A stretch of 64,000 bases of DNA, from the IMG/VR virus record IMGVR_UViG_2895476258_000012, positions 54 through 64,053 of that record. One strand, given 5' to 3'. Below are positions 2,759-6,134 of the stretch, piece after piece. Below the pieces are notes generated by a model. It was not told where the DNA came from and made no database searches. It saw only the letters and a program-made list of their open reading frames with translations. Made by a program: the position numbers and the translations under genes. Numbering within the stretch: the stretch's first letter is position 1; the number at the start of each line of letters is the position of its first letter. The stretch comes from a virus (taxonomy: Duplodnaviria; Caudoviricetes).

Positions 2759-3517
2759 GTGGCCGCCATCCGCTATCGCGAGATCGCCGACCAGTTGCGA
2801 GACGCGATCAGCGACGGCACCTACCGGCCCGGCGACCTACTCCCCCAGCAAGACGAGCTGATGAGAACTCACCACGCGTCCAAGGGCACGATCAACACTG
2901 CGATCCGGGAACTCCGATACGAGGGACTGATCAGCCGGGCGGCGCAACGCGGACGGCTCGTGGTCCTGGACAACCGGCCCGTGCTCATCGACCTGTCCTT
3001 GACGGCCAGCACGGGCGGCGGGCTCGGCCCATGGGAGACCGCATGCAAACGGGCGGGCATGGACGGCCGGATGACCGTGACGGCCGCCGCGACCGTCGAG
3101 AGCGACCCAGACATCGCGCAAGCCCTCCAGATCCGAACGGGCCAGCCGGTGATACGGCGCGACCGGCGCGCTCTGCTCGGCGGCCAGTCGGTCATGCTCG
3201 ACACGGCCTTCTACCCGGCGTCCCTTGTGGAGAGCACGCCCCTCGCCGGCGAGGGATCGGTCTCGGGCGGCGTCTACGCGGCGCTGATCGACGCCGGACT
3301 GCTCGACCCGGCGACGGCCACGACGACCGACATGATCCGATCTCGGGCTGCCACGGCACGAGAAGCTGAAAGGCTGAAGGTGCGGCCCGGCAGCCCGGTC
3401 TTGGACATCGAGCGGATCACGCGCGACGGCGAGGGCCGCCCGGTCGAGCTGCTGCGCCGGGTGGCGAACGGCGCACGTGTCCGAGTCGTTCATGACGCGC
3501 GCACCATCACTGTCTAA
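2759..3517 (+). CDS. GntR-family regulator with UTRA domain (HutC/KorSA-like)
   Basis: YREIADQLRDAISDGTYRPGDLLP...SKGTINTAIRELRYEGLI winged HTH plus UTRA-like C-terminus; divergent from the DUF2637 operon. Confidence 0.9.
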   Translation: MAAIRYREIADQLRDAISDGTYRPGDLLPQQDELMRTHHASKGTINTAIRELRYEGLISRAAQRGRLVVLDNRPVLIDLSLTASTGGGLGPWETACKRAGMDGRMTVTAAATVESDPDIAQALQIRTGQPVIRRDRRALLGGQSVMLDTAFYPASLVESTPLAGEGSVSGGVYAALIDAGLLDPATATTTDMIRSRAATAREAERLKVRPGSPVLDIERITRDGEGRPVELLRRVANGARVRVVHDARTITV

Positions 3518-3561
3518 TCACCAACGTCGCGACCTGCGTATTTACGTCTTACCGCGTGACC

Positions 3562-3583
3562 GCGCAAGCAAAAGAACTTGCGC
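3562..3583. promoter_or_regulatory. Palindrome GCGCAAG-N8-CTTGCGC overlapping the putative -35 of the Y RNA/rsr promoter
   Basis: TTGCGC at 3578-3583 and TACGGT at 3603-3608, upstream of Y RNA unit 1. Confidence 0.5.
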
Positions 3584-3642
3584 TCTCATCGGCCTCCCAT
3601 GCTACGGTTTCGATCAGTTAAACCCCTCCGAAATCCACCATC

Positions 3643-3752
3643 CCGTCGGGCTCGGAGCGGGTACGGATCGAATGGCGTCGGTTATCTCTTTCTGCAAAAA
3701 AGATCACACCCGGTGCCGCTTCTCACATCCGTATCCGCTCCCTGCTCGACGG
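3643..3752 (+). ncRNA. Y RNA-like unit 1 (no tRNA-like domain)
   Basis: Terminal stem CCGTCGGGCTCGGAGCGGGTACGGAT / ATCCGTATCCGCTCCCTGCTCGACGG; motifs CGGATCGAA-N5-TCGGTTATC and CACATCCG; upstream of the TROVE gene. Confidence 0.75.
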
Positions 3753-3762
3753 TCGTCGGCGC

Positions 3763-3916
3763 GGTTCGGAGAGGGCACGGGTCGAAGTTCGTCGGTTACC
3801 ACTTCTAATGGGGCGGTCGCAGGTTCGAGTCCTGCCCGGGGCTAACGCTCCGGTAGCTCAGTTGGCAGAGCACCTAAACGCCGGTGAACATCCCACATCC
3901 GTGTCTTCTCCGAACC
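3763..3916 (+). ncRNA. YrlA-like Y RNA unit 2 (permuted tRNA mimic)
   Basis: 18-bp terminal stem; T arm GCAGG-TTCGAGT-CCTGC (3819-3835) precedes a closed acceptor-like hairpin and D arm TAGCTCAGTTGGCAGAGC (3854-3871). Confidence 0.85.
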
Positions 3917-3928
3917 ACACCGATCCAC

Positions 3929-4080
3929 TCGTCAGCCCTATCGGGAGCACGGGTCGAATTCTGTCGGTTACCACACAGGTAAAGGTTCGACTCCTTTCCG
4001 GCCCACTCGTGGGCCAGACGCCCAGGTCGGCTGGGCACCCGGCAGGAGCCCCACATCCGTGCCACCGGCAAGGCTGACGA
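3929..4080 (+). ncRNA. YrlA-like Y RNA unit 3 (divergent D arm)
   Basis: Same 5' and 3' motifs; T arm AAAGG-TTCGACT-CCTTT (3981-3997), hairpin GGCCCAC/GTGGGCC; ends TCGTCAGCC / GGCTGACGA pair. Confidence 0.75.
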
Positions 4081-4084
4081 TCAC

Positions 4085-4229
4085 GGGGAGTGCGGGTCGA
4101 AGTCGTTCGGTTATCCTCCGGAACCGGCGGTCGCGGGGTTCAAGTCCCCGCTGCGCGGCCTGGCCGCGCGTAGCTCAGCGGTAGAGCTCCGGTCTTGATC
4201 CGGTCGGCACACCCATATCCGCCCTCCCC
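4085..4229 (+). ncRNA. YrlA-like Y RNA unit 4 (permuted tRNA mimic)
   Basis: T arm CGGGG-TTCAAGT-CCCCG (4134-4150), D arm TAGCTCAGCGGTAGAGC (4171-4187), ACCGG/CCGGT anticodon-stem equivalent, conserved Ro-stem motifs. Confidence 0.85.
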
Positions 4230-4234
4230 TCCCC

Positions 4235-4259
4235 CACATCCGCCACCTGGCGGGTCGAA
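4235..4259 (+). promoter_or_regulatory. Circularly permuted Ro-binding helix in the rsr leader
   Basis: CACATCCGCC-ACCT-GGCGGGTCGAA: the 3' Y motif comes first and the 5' motif second, 7 nt before RBS GGAG. Confidence 0.5.
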
Positions 4260-4276
4260 CCCCTTGGAGATCCTTC

Positions 4277-5956
4277 ATGGCCCGCAACCGTGACCCTCTC
4301 GCAAGCGTTTCCGCATTCGCCACCCCGCAGACCCAGCGGCTGCCCGGACGCACCGAGCAGGTGAAGAACGCGGCGGGCGGCTATGTCTTCGACAAGGACC
4401 TGTGGCGCAAGCTGGAGGACTTCCTGATCCTCGGCACCACTGGCGGCACCTACTACGTCAGCGAGAACAAGCTGACCGCCGACAACGCCGACGTGCTGTT
4501 CAACGCGATCGCCGAGGACGGCCCGCGCGTCGTCGAACTGCTCACCGACATCTCGACCGCACGCCCGCCGCGCGCCCCGAAGCAGCGCCCGGCGCTGTTC
4601 GCGCTGGCCGCCGCTTACGCCAAGGGCGACCAGGCCACCCGCCAGGCGGCCAAGCTGGCGCTGCCAAAGGTGGCGCGCACCACCGACCACCTCGCCCAGT
4701 TCTTCGGCTACTACAAGAACCTCGGCGGCAAGCCGACCGCTCACGGCACCGCGCCGATCGTCGGCCGGTCACTGCGCACGGCGCTCGCCTCCTGGTTCCT
4801 GTCGGACCGCGCGGACACCGTCGCGTTCAAGGTGTGCAAGGCCCGCCAGCGGAAGACCCCGCAGGGCGAGGCGTTCGACCTGCGCGACGTGCTGCGCATC
4901 GCCCACCCCAAGGCGGACAGCCCGGAGCGGGCGCGGCTGTTCGGCTGGATCGCCGGGAACGTCTCCGACGAGGACGCGCGCGACGTGCTGGAGTCGGTGG
5001 ACCGGTTCCTGACCGCCAAGGCCGTCACCACGGCCCGCGAGGCGATCCGCGTGGTCAACGAGCGCAAGGTGCCGTGGGAGTTCCTACCGGACGCGATGCT
5101 GCGCGAGCCTGCCGTGTGGGACGCCCTGATCGACACGGTCGGCATGACCGCGCTCATCCGCAACCTGTCCCGCATGACCCGCATCGGCACGCTCAAGCCC
5201 ATGAGCGACGCCACGCGGCGCGCGATCGCCCGGCTCACCAACCAGGAGGCGCTCCTTCGGGCGCGCATCCACCCCATGGACGCCTTCCTCGCGCTGCGCG
5301 TCTACGGCTCCGGCCGGTCCCAGCCCAACCCGCGCGCCGACGCGCAGACGTGGACGCCGGTCCCGGCGATCCTCGACGCGCTGGAGGAGACGTACGAGCT
5401 GTCGTTCGGCAGCGTCGAGCCCTCGGGCCGGCGACTGCTGGTCGCGGTGGACTCGTCCAGGTCGATGTCCGGGAATTGGGGCGGCAGCGGTGTCGTGGTC
5501 GGCGGTTCGTCGATCGGTTCGCCGTACGAGGTCGGCTGCGCTCTGGCCGTCATGCTGGCCCGCATCGAGAAGGGGAACGTGCACGTCATCGACGTGGACA
5601 CCAGTGTTCACGCCTCGAAGGTGACGCCGCGCACCAACCTGCGGGAGATCAAGAGCTGGCGGCCGTCCGGCGGCGGCACCGACCTGTCGTTGCCGTTCCG
5701 GTGGGCGCGCGAGCAGCGCATGGCGGTGGACGGGGTCGTCCTGTTCACTGACAACGAGACGTGGGCCGGGCGGTCTCACCCGTCGCAGGAGCTCGAAGCC
5801 TACCGGCGTACGGTGGCGCGTGACGCCCGCGTGATCGTGGCGGCGATGACGGCGGCGGGCTACTCGATCGGCGACCCTGCCGACGCGGGGGTGCTGAACG
5901 TGGCGGGCCTGGACGCGTCGCTGCCACTGATCGTGAACGGGTTCATCCGCTCATAG
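4277..5956 (+). CDS. rsr: TROVE-domain Ro60 ortholog (Rsr) with C-terminal vWA domain
   Basis: QVKNAAGGYVF, FLILGTTGGTYY, DVLRIAHPK, VPWEFLP, GMTALIRNL, RIHP, LLVAVDSSRSM (MIDAS-like), GGTD, VLFTDNETW. Confidence 0.95.
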   Translation: MARNRDPLASVSAFATPQTQRLPGRTEQVKNAAGGYVFDKDLWRKLEDFLILGTTGGTYYVSENKLTADNADVLFNAIAEDGPRVVELLTDISTARPPRAPKQRPALFALAAAYAKGDQATRQAAKLALPKVARTTDHLAQFFGYYKNLGGKPTAHGTAPIVGRSLRTALASWFLSDRADTVAFKVCKARQRKTPQGEAFDLRDVLRIAHPKADSPERARLFGWIAGNVSDEDARDVLESVDRFLTAKAVTTAREAIRVVNERKVPWEFLPDAMLREPAVWDALIDTVGMTALIRNLSRMTRIGTLKPMSDATRRAIARLTNQEALLRARIHPMDAFLALRVYGSGRSQPNPRADAQTWTPVPAILDALEETYELSFGSVEPSGRRLLVAVDSSRSMSGNWGGSGVVVGGSSIGSPYEVGCALAVMLARIEKGNVHVIDVDTSVHASKVTPRTNLREIKSWRPSGGGTDLSLPFRWAREQRMAVDGVVLFTDNETWAGRSHPSQELEAYRRTVARDARVIVAAMTAAGYSIGDPADAGVLNVAGLDASLPLIVNGFIRS

Positions 5957-5986
5957 GGACCCGCCCCGCCAACAACACGCAAGAAT

Positions 5987-6015
5987 GGCCCGCCTCCCAA
6001 AGTGGGAGGCGGGCC
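5987..6015. terminator. Intrinsic terminator hairpin after rsr (possibly bidirectional)
   Basis: 13-bp perfect stem GGCCCGCCTCCCA / TGGGAGGCGGGCC between convergent genes. Confidence 0.75.
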
Positions 6016-6134
6016 GTTGAGTTCGTCATGTCAACGTGAAGCATCGGGGCAAGACTCGACGTAGCTGCCGCATCAGCGCATGTAGAACTCGATGTCGAGA
6101 ACGTTTATGAGTTGTCCACAGGCCGCCTGTCAAG

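What the first reader, a model, noticed from the sequence alone, without database searches (positions are those of the whole stretch)
4235..4277. Circularly permuted Ro-binding helix in the rsr mRNA leader: candidate autoregulatory switch
Seen: after unit 4, the two Y RNA motifs recur in reversed order (CACATCCGCC-ACCT-GGCGGGTCGAA). This rebuilds the Ro-binding helix as a small hairpin 7 nt upstream of RBS GGAG. Inference: free Rsr that is not titrated by the Y RNAs could bind here and block its own translation, balancing protein against RNA. I know of no description of this, but cannot search.
Basis: inference. Interest (0 to 1): 0.7.

Follow-up and report, generated by a model that had tools for sequence, protein, structure and literature searches.

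The report
Strand-swapped Y-RNA helix before rsr
Just ahead of the ribosome-binding site of this Nonomuraea Ro60 (Rsr) gene sits a small, strongly conserved hairpin that copies, with its strands swapped, the stem by which Rsr is thought to grip its partner Y RNAs, so spare Rsr probably shuts off its own translation, though nobody has tested this.

Summary
At 4235-4259 the two strands of the Rsr-binding helix of the four upstream Y RNAs recur in reversed order (CACAUCCGCC-ACCU-GGCGGGUCGAA). They form a 7-bp hairpin 6 nt before the SD GGAG and 17 nt before the rsr ATG.

It is not chance. The strict pattern occurs once in the 14-Mb genome. In 61 related genomes, 15 of 18 hits lie directly 5' of rsr.

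64 of 84 distinct rsr leaders carry it. These come from Nonomuraea, Streptosporangium, Actinomadura and kin. Both arms are 91-96% conserved, while loop, flanks and spacer vary.

Two distant Rsr clades have the same architecture built from their own Y-helix variant, with compensatory changes. One is an unnamed actinomycete genus; the other is the large Streptomyces phages such as Comrade and Bmoc. In one phage contig an ORF separates the Y RNA from the leader hairpin, so the hairpin is not an array-junction relic.

Best reading (about 0.55): an autogenous translational operator by target mimicry. Binding and repression are untested. Most other phage Rsr genes and M. smegmatis-like loci lack it.

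I found no paper describing it. This scan's earlier notes flagged the same kind of hairpin on other DNA.

The parts
3654..3741 (+). Y RNA unit 1: short, with no tRNA-like module. 5' strand ACGGAUCGAA, 3' strand CACAUCCGU.
   Evidence: Sequence; motif positions.
3768..3911 (+). Y RNA unit 2, YrlA-like with a tRNA-like module.
   Evidence: Rfam YrlA match at 3789-3890, 45.1 bits, which is below the gathering score of 69. Stem strands at 3777-3786 and 3894-3903.
3943..4066 (+). Y RNA unit 3: ACGGGUCGAA ... CACAUCCGU.
   Evidence: Sequence; motifs.
4085..4229 (+). Y RNA unit 4, YrlA-like: GGGGAGUGCGGGUCGAA ... CAUAUCCGCCCUCCCC.
   Evidence: Rfam YrlA match at 4107-4225, 28.9 bits. The fold closes the terminal stem.
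4235..4244 (+). Leader hairpin 5' arm, CACAUCCGCC. It copies the Y RNA 3' strand.
   Evidence: Mean identity 91% over 63 distinct leaders.
4245..4248 (+). Loop ACCU. It is variable in relatives: 47 distinct loops in 63 leaders.
4249..4259 (+). Leader hairpin 3' arm, GGCGGGUCGAA. It copies the Y RNA 5' strand and contains the GNCGAA motif.
   Evidence: Mean identity 96%. The motif is defined in PMC4201824.
4266..4269 (+). Shine-Dalgarno GGAG of rsr.
   Evidence: Sequence. In relatives the SD starts 2-10 nt after GUCGA.
4277..5956 (+). rsr (Ro sixty-related protein, 559 aa).
   Evidence: Pfam TROVE and vWA_Ro60. PDB 2NVO and 1YVP homolog.
5987..6015 (+). 12-bp GC-rich hairpin after the rsr stop codon. 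It is the likely end of the transcription unit and has no U tract.
   Evidence: Sequence. It is not called by the U-tract terminator scan.

Best explanation
The hairpin is a cis-acting operator for Rsr in its own mRNA leader. It presents the two strands of the Y-RNA stem that carries the GNCGAA recognition motif. These include the bulged C and the CAY opposite strand. The helix is closed by a small loop on the side where a Y RNA has its 5' and 3' ends. Rsr is co-transcribed with its Y RNAs. When Rsr exceeds the available Y RNAs, free Rsr binds this mimic. The motif ends 0-10 nt before the SD and 13-25 nt before the start codon. A bound 60-kDa ring would therefore block 30S binding and lower Rsr synthesis, holding protein and Y RNA in balance.

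Shown: the mimicry, its position, its conservation, its uniqueness in the genome, and its recurrence in distant clades with clade-specific helix variants.

Inferred: Rsr binding, steric occlusion, repression, and competition with Y RNAs.
For: (1) Both arms equal the Y-RNA stem strands of the same locus.

(2) 64 of 84 distinct leaders of Streptosporangiales-type rsr carry it. Arms are 0.91 and 0.96 identical, against 0.47-0.60 for flank, loop and spacer. 98.6% of cells are paired, against 31-57% when the partner is slid. Three pairs show double changes. Examples are L105 (C-G to U-A) and L082 (A-U to G-C).

(3) The strict pattern occurs once in the own genome. In 61 relatives, 15 of 18 hits abut rsr. 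The other 3 lie in long ORFs, and the reversed-pattern control gives 2.

(4) Clade B Rsr is 38% identical. Its Y helices are CGGGCCGR/CAYGCCCG, and its leader has GCAUGCCCGG-AUA-CCGGGCCGAGG against the SD. Variants occur in 5 of 10 relatives.

(5) The Streptomyces-phage clade has AAU|GCCCN-loop-N'GGGC|CGRN followed directly by AAGGA. The detector finds it in 19 of 22 leaders, against 0.0017 per control window. Stems vary in a compensatory way: GCCCA/UGGGC, GCCCU/AGGGC, GCCCC/GGGGC, GCUCAU/AUGAGC and UUCCC/GGGGA.

(6) In L288 the normal-order Y RNA (UCGGGCCGAA.../...UUGCCCGA) lies about 370 nt upstream, and an ORF separates it from the leader hairpin.

(7) GNCGAA is the motif proposed for Rsr recognition, and Y RNAs need Rsr to accumulate (PMC4201824).
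Against: There are no binding or expression data.

The published motif is GNCGAAN0-1G. The trailing G is missing in the window (GUCGAACC) and in many relatives.

The hairpin lacks a clear equivalent of the Y-RNA upper stem. Pairing of the CU-rich upstream flank with the SD is only weakly better than with swapped partners (-8.30 against -7.83 kcal/mol; 2% of swaps are as low).

About a quarter of clade-A leaders lack it, including all Herbidospora. So do half of clade B, the M. smegmatis-like L236, Gordonia and Mycobacterium phages, and 62 of 63 other viral Rsr leaders by the generic detector, although the covariance model later picked out two of those 63 (L323, L326). It is therefore dispensable.

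Within clade A there are few compensatory changes (4 cells). Homogenisation with the neighbouring Y-RNA repeats could contribute to the sequence identity there.
Confidence: 0.55

Rival explanations
1. The hairpin is an Rsr-bound 5'-end cap or processing boundary. After the Y RNAs are cut out of the common precursor, the hairpin, with or without Rsr, marks and protects the new 5' end of the rsr mRNA from RNase J/E. This gives stabilisation (positive feedback) rather than repression.
For: The Y RNAs and rsr lie on one strand, and no promoter-like or U-tract terminator site separates them. In M. smegmatis the Y RNAs upstream of rsr come from one precursor, and Y RNAs need Rsr for stability (PMC4201824). 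The hairpin starts 5 nt after unit 4.
Against: In the Streptomyces-phage clade the hairpin sits in a short gap after a protein-coding ORF, not after a Y-RNA array. The constant feature across clades is closeness to the SD, not to a Y RNA.
Confidence: 0.15
2. The hairpin binds Rsr for a purpose other than controlling rsr. It might be released as a minimal fifth Y RNA or decoy, or remain as a second Rsr site on the 3' tail of unit 4. It might also nucleate RNP assembly next to the site of synthesis.
For: It has the same helix as the Y RNAs. It lies only 5 nt from unit 4. Short Y RNAs without a tRNA module exist, for example unit 1 and YrlB.
Against: It has only 7 bp and a 3-8 nt loop, with no effector-binding module. 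It keeps a fixed distance to the SD even where no Y RNA is adjacent. Rfam YrlA gives no hit on it.
Confidence: 0.1
3. The hairpin works without Rsr, for example as a generic leader stem-loop that sets ribosome standby or mRNA folding, or as the site of another factor. Its likeness to the Y helix would then reflect descent from the repeat array or gene conversion.
For: It is next to a tandem array whose unit junctions naturally place a 3' strand before a 5' strand. There is little covariation inside clade A.
Against: The unpaired CAY and CGAA letters are conserved, not only the stem. Three clades each copy their own Y-helix variant. In L082 the leader has drifted from its Y RNAs yet kept the pair. 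The phage case has no adjacent array.
Confidence: 0.12
4. The hairpin is a non-functional relic of array decay.
For: Collapsed units exist in some loci, such as L002/L027 and L010/L052. The element has been lost in several lineages.
Against: The footprint pattern (arms above 90% identity, surroundings about 50%) holds over 63 distinct leaders from several genera. The element recurs in distant clades.
Confidence: 0.05

Closest known systems
E. coli thrS operator (threonyl-tRNA synthetase autoregulation by a tRNA-Thr anticodon-arm mimic next to the SD). From my own knowledge.
   Same: The mRNA leader copies the protein's main RNA ligand. The copy sits directly upstream of the SD. The logic is competition between the ligand RNA and the mRNA for free protein.
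   Different: The protein family and RNA fold differ. Here the mimic is a strand-swapped (circularly permuted) copy of a bulged helix. Binding and repression are untested.
Ribosomal-protein leader operators (L1, S8, S15, L20, L10) and U1A binding to a U1-snRNA-like element in its own mRNA. From my own knowledge.
   Same: An RNP protein is kept in step with its partner RNA through a mimic of that RNA in its own message.
   Different: Those are rRNA or snRNA mimics with proven binding. U1A acts on polyadenylation, not on translation.
Phage translational operators (MS2 coat protein hairpin at the replicase start; T4 RegA). From my own knowledge.
   Same: A small hairpin at the SD or start codon is bound by a phage-encoded RNA-binding protein. 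This is relevant to the Streptomyces-phage copies.
   Different: Those operators are not copies of a separate non-coding RNA partner.
Bacterial Y RNAs (YrlA/YrlB, Rfam RF02553; D. radiodurans Yrn1/Yrn2; PMC4201824).
   Same: It carries the same GNCGAA strand and the same opposite strand as the Y RNAs of the locus.
   Different: The strand order is reversed. The loop has 4 nt instead of a tRNA-like or pyrimidine-rich module. It is part of an mRNA leader. It gives no Rfam hit.

Membership tests
Y RNA (YrlA/YrlB type) | A stem formed by the RNA's 5' and 3' ends, with GNCGAAN0-1G on the 5' strand. | tested here: not met
   GUCGAA is present, but on the 3' arm of a local hairpin. The ends side is closed by a 4-nt loop. 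The trailing N0-1G is absent (GUCGAACC).
Y RNA (YrlA/YrlB type) | An effector module (tRNA-like T/D arms or a long hairpin with a pyrimidine-rich loop) and a match to Rfam RF02553. | tested here: not met
   Rfam hits cover units 2 and 4 only. Nothing hits 4235-4259 at E <= 1.
Autogenous translational operator by target mimicry | The leader element resembles the protein's cognate RNA site. | tested here: met
   Both strands match those of the four Y RNAs. The same holds in clades B and C with their own helix variants.
Autogenous translational operator by target mimicry | The element overlaps or abuts the ribosome-binding site of the protein's own gene. | tested here: met
   It lies 6 nt from the SD in the window, 2-10 nt in clade A and 0-1 nt in most of the phage clade.
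Autogenous translational operator by target mimicry | The encoded protein binds the element directly and specifically. | not testable with these tools
   This needs EMSA or filter binding with purified Rsr.
Autogenous translational operator by target mimicry | Translation is repressed by the protein and relieved by the competing ligand RNA. | not testable with these tools
   This needs reporter fusions, toeprinting and Y-RNA titration.
Intrinsic terminator / attenuator | A GC-rich hairpin followed by a U tract. | tested here: not met
   The hairpin is followed by AACCCCUUGGAG. No + strand terminator-like site is found in 3480-6100.
Rsr/Ro60 (the downstream gene) | A TROVE domain plus a vWA domain, and homology to solved Ro60/Rsr structures. 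| tested here: met
   PF05731 and PF25045. PDB 2NVO at 3e-77 and 1YVP at 3e-73.

The most novel reading that the evidence does not exclude
Ro60/Rsr proteins of several unrelated bacterial and phage lineages set their own level through a strand-swapped miniature of the Y-RNA docking helix placed on the ribosome-binding site. This would be the first defined mRNA target and the first homeostatic circuit for the Ro60-Y RNA particle. It would have been either kept from an ancient ancestor or invented repeatedly.
Probability: 0.45. Interest if true: 0.75.

Novelty: new member of a known kind. Interest (0 to 1): 0.65.

Why it matters
How cells keep Ro60/Rsr in step with its Y RNAs is not known. Y RNAs are unstable without Rsr, and free Rsr has different RNA-binding properties from Y-bound Rsr. 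A conserved mimic of the docking helix on the rsr ribosome-binding site gives a simple, directly testable feedback loop.

It also defines a minimal RNA of about 25 nt that should contain all determinants for Rsr recognition. That RNA would be useful for structural work and for finding Y RNAs in genomes where they escape homology searches.

The Streptomyces phages that carry it grow on S. griseus and S. lividans, so they offer tractable systems.

Tried and rejected
All were chance matches and none was next to rsr.

(2) I tested whether the 3' arm is the 5' strand of a giant stem enclosing rsr. There is no CAYAUCCG on the + strand after the stop codon, only a separate GC hairpin. Rejected.

(3) I tested for an extended basal helix that pairs the CU-rich upstream flank with the SD. 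It is perfect in some loci (for example L010, CCUUCG/CGAAGG). Over 64 leaders it is only marginally better than with swapped partners. I kept it as a weak possibility.

(4) I looked for Y RNAs in phages Comrade and Bmoc with Rfam YrlA. Only tRNA-array hits came back. A pattern search then found the small Y RNA of the L288 phage. Comrade's own Y RNA was not located.

(5) The three pattern hits in rsr-less Nonomuraea genomes (G015, G016, G020) lie inside long ORFs and were rejected as chance.

(6) The clade-A covariance model does not reach the low-GC phage clade. Cross-clade likeness there rests on my rule-based detector.

(7) Literature searches for Rsr/Ro60 autoregulation, own mRNA, operator and phage Ro-like genes found nothing relevant. 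The library lacks most subscription journals.

Full report
**Observation.** The window carries four tandem Y-RNA-like units on the + strand, at about 3654-3741, 3768-3911, 3943-4066 and 4085-4229.
- Each unit is closed by a stem whose 5' strand reads CGGRUCGAA and whose 3' strand reads CAYAUCCG.
- Rfam's YrlA model matches units 2 and 4 below its gathering score, at 45.1 and 28.9 bits.
- Five nucleotides after unit 4 the two motifs recur in reversed order and close together: CACAUCCGCC (4235-4244), loop ACCU, GGCGGGUCGAA (4249-4259).
- RNAfold gives a 7-bp hairpin of -11.3 kcal/mol.
- GGAG follows after 6 nt (4266-4269), and the ATG of a 559-aa ORF is at 4277.
- That ORF has TROVE and Ro60-vWA domains. 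It matches D. radiodurans Rsr (2NVO, E 3e-77) and Xenopus Ro60 (1YVP).

**Is it more than chance?** Four results say yes.
- The pattern ATCCGCC-N3-9-GGCGGGUCGA occurs once in the whole 14.3-Mb assembly, at this site.
- In 61 related genomes it occurs 18 times, once per genome. Fifteen of these lie directly 5' of the rsr gene located independently.
- The other three lie inside long ORFs of genomes without rsr. The reversed-pattern control gave two hits.
- A covariance model built from related leaders finds only 4229-4279 in the 64-kb window (54.6 bits, E 2e-14).

**Conservation in the home clade.** The genus is Nonomuraea. I collected rsr loci from 19 same-genus genomes and 80 named genomes. 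The named genomes include Nonomuraea, Streptosporangium, Microtetraspora, Sphaerisporangium, Spongiactinospora, Herbidospora, Actinomadura, Actinospica and MAGs.
- Of 84 distinct leaders, 59 match a strict expression for the permuted helix and 5 more carry clear variants.
- In the alignment of these 64 (A2) the two arms are 0.91 and 0.96 identical on average.
- By contrast, the 6 nt upstream, the loop, the spacer and the SD-to-ATG stretch are 0.47-0.60 identical. There are 47 different loops in 63 distinct rows.
- 98.6% of pair cells form standard pairs, against 31-57% when the 3' partner is slid by 1-3 columns.
- Three pairs show changes on both sides. Examples are CACAUCUGCCCC/GGGGCAGGUCGAA in L105, and CCUGUCCG/GGGCCGAA in L082.
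- In L082 the Y RNAs of the same locus have kept the usual letters.
- The SD starts 2-10 nt after GUCGA, and the start codon lies 13-25 nt after it.

This is the footprint of a sequence-specific, position-specific element, not of a generic stem.

**Two further clades.** A class-wide sample of 400 actinomycete genomes found few other true Rsr genes.

*Clade B.*
- One of these genes, L232, is 38% identical to the window's Rsr.
- L232 has three Y RNAs whose helix is CGGGCCGR/CAYGCCCG.
- Its leader reads GCAUGCCCGG-AUA-CCGGGCCGAGG, running into the SD.
- Among its relatives, 5 of 10 leaders have such a hairpin with their own variants.
- For example, L274 has CAUGUCCCGG...CCGGGACCGA, matching the CAUGUCCG strand of its Y RNA.

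*Clade C (large Streptomyces phages).*
- The Ro-like genes of phages such as Comrade and Bmoc are 31-34% identical to the window's Rsr.
- In AT-rich sequence they show the same plan: AAU|GCCCN-loop-N'GGGC|CGRN, followed at once by AAGGA and ATG.
- A rule-based detector requires A-Y, a stem of at least 4 bp, a 3-12 nt loop, and then CGR. It is positive in 19 of 22 such leaders.
- The control rate is 0.0017 per 35-nt window in the same loci. For clade A the figures are 54 of 83 against 0.031.
- The stems covary: GCCCA/UGGGC, GCCCU/AGGGC, GCCCC/GGGGC, GCCUU/AGGGC, UUCCC/GGGGA and GCUCAU/AUGAGC.

*The L288 case.*
- A small normal-order Y RNA lies at 335-400 (UCGGGCCGAAUGG.../...ACUUGCCCGA).
- It is separated from the leader hairpin (771-790) by a 111-aa ORF.
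- So the leader copy is not the by-product of two adjacent array units.

**Where it is missing.**
- All six Herbidospora leaders and about a dozen other clade-A leaders lack it.
- Half of clade B lacks it.
- L020, L234, L235 and the M. smegmatis-like L236 lack it.
- Gordonia phage Cashline and Mycobacterium phage InterFolia lack it.
- 62 of 63 other viral Rsr leaders are negative by the detector. The covariance model later picked out two more clade-A-like viral leaders among them, L323 and L326.
- In Herbidospora and in Microbacterium phage FuzzBuster the 3' strand of the last ordinary Y RNA itself ends within about 0-20 nt of the SD. That arrangement might serve the same purpose. This is speculation.

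**Mechanism.** Chen et al. (PMC4201824) give the relevant background.
- They identify GNCGAAN0-1G on the 5' strand of bacterial Y RNAs as the likely Rsr recognition motif.
- They relate it to the GGUCCGA contacted by Xenopus Ro60.
- They show nuclease protection of the corresponding nucleotides in D. radiodurans.
- They report that Y RNAs upstream of rsr come from a common precursor and need Rsr to accumulate.

The leader hairpin keeps G-N-C-G-A-A with the bulged C and keeps the opposite CAY strand. It closes the helix on the side where Y RNAs have their termini. From memory, the Ro60-Y RNA crystal used a two-strand duplex, so connectivity at that side should not matter; I could not check this. 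I found no promoter-like or U-tract terminator site between the array and rsr.

The most economical reading is autogenous translational control by target mimicry. Free Rsr binds the leader copy and occludes the adjacent SD, and Y RNAs compete for Rsr. I put this at about 0.55. The main rival is an Rsr-protected 5' end that stabilises the processed mRNA. It fits the array context, but it fits poorly with the phage loci, where the hairpin follows an ORF. A weak extra feature is pairing of the CU-rich upstream flank with the SD.

**Comparison with known systems.** The element works like the thrS operator, ribosomal-protein leaders or the U1A autoregulatory element. It is not a Y RNA: the strand order is reversed, it has no effector module and it gives no Rfam hit. 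It is not an intrinsic terminator. I found no publication describing an Rsr/Ro60 site in the rsr leader. The searchable library is incomplete, however.

**Earlier notes of this scan.** Seven other notes flag look-alike hairpins before Ro60 genes, and an eighth a related Ro60-like/partner-RNA leader, all in other genomes. These are unchecked AI notes that agree with my reading but are not independent evidence. I verified actinomycete and phage cases myself, but not the cyanobacterial or myxobacterial ones.

**Verdict.** It is a new member of a known regulatory kind. It is of real interest to the Ro60 field because it makes Ro60-Y RNA homeostasis directly testable.

Noticed in passing
L012/L051 (Nonomuraea sp.), leader just before the ATG: A third copy of the 3'-strand motif overlaps the start codon (GGAGG-CACAUCC-AUG). 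The GGCGGGUCGAA arm could therefore pair either upstream (the permuted hairpin) or downstream, enclosing the SD. This would be a true alternative-pairing arrangement, seen only in this lineage.
   Followed up: no
L002/L027 and L010/L052, just upstream of the leader hairpin: Collapsed Y units. These are hairpins such as GGGAGGA-GGGUCGAAG-UCCUCCC that keep the basal stem and the GNCGAA motif but have lost the 3' strand and the whole inner module.
   Followed up: no
L004, L007, L008, L034 and others, between the last Y RNA and the leader hairpin: A run of 4-7 U follows the closing stem of the last Y RNA. This would make that stem look like an intrinsic terminator, so rsr may be expressed by read-through in those species. 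The window has CCUCCCC instead.
   Followed up: no
L277 (Microbacterium phage FuzzBuster) and Herbidospora loci L090-L095: There is no permuted hairpin, but the 3' strand of the last normal-order Y RNA ends 0-20 nt before the rsr SD. An Rsr bound to that Y RNA in the precursor could also reach the SD.
   Followed up: partly
L288:335-400 (IMG/VR contig of a Streptomyces-phage type): A small YrlB-like Y RNA lies upstream of the phage Ro-like gene. It is not detected by Rfam RF02553 at E <= 0.1. No Y RNA was located in phage Comrade.
   Followed up: partly
G000:C97:14516-14626 (own genome, another contig): A fragment matches the last 37 residues of Rsr at 70% identity, with a TGA nearby in the longer match. 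It is probably a remnant of a second rsr copy.
   Followed up: no
window 4277-5956 and its genomic context: rsr is patchy in the genus: 19 of 36 Nonomuraea genomes searched have it. Near-identical locus types occur on IMG/VR viral contigs (L320, L321, L324, L332, L375) and on a Streptosporangium plasmid (L034).
   Followed up: partly
G144:C3:38859-40538 (L236, M. smegmatis-like locus): The rsr match is split into two overlapping pieces (residues 3-255 and 227-551). This suggests a frameshift or an assembly error in that genome.
   Followed up: no
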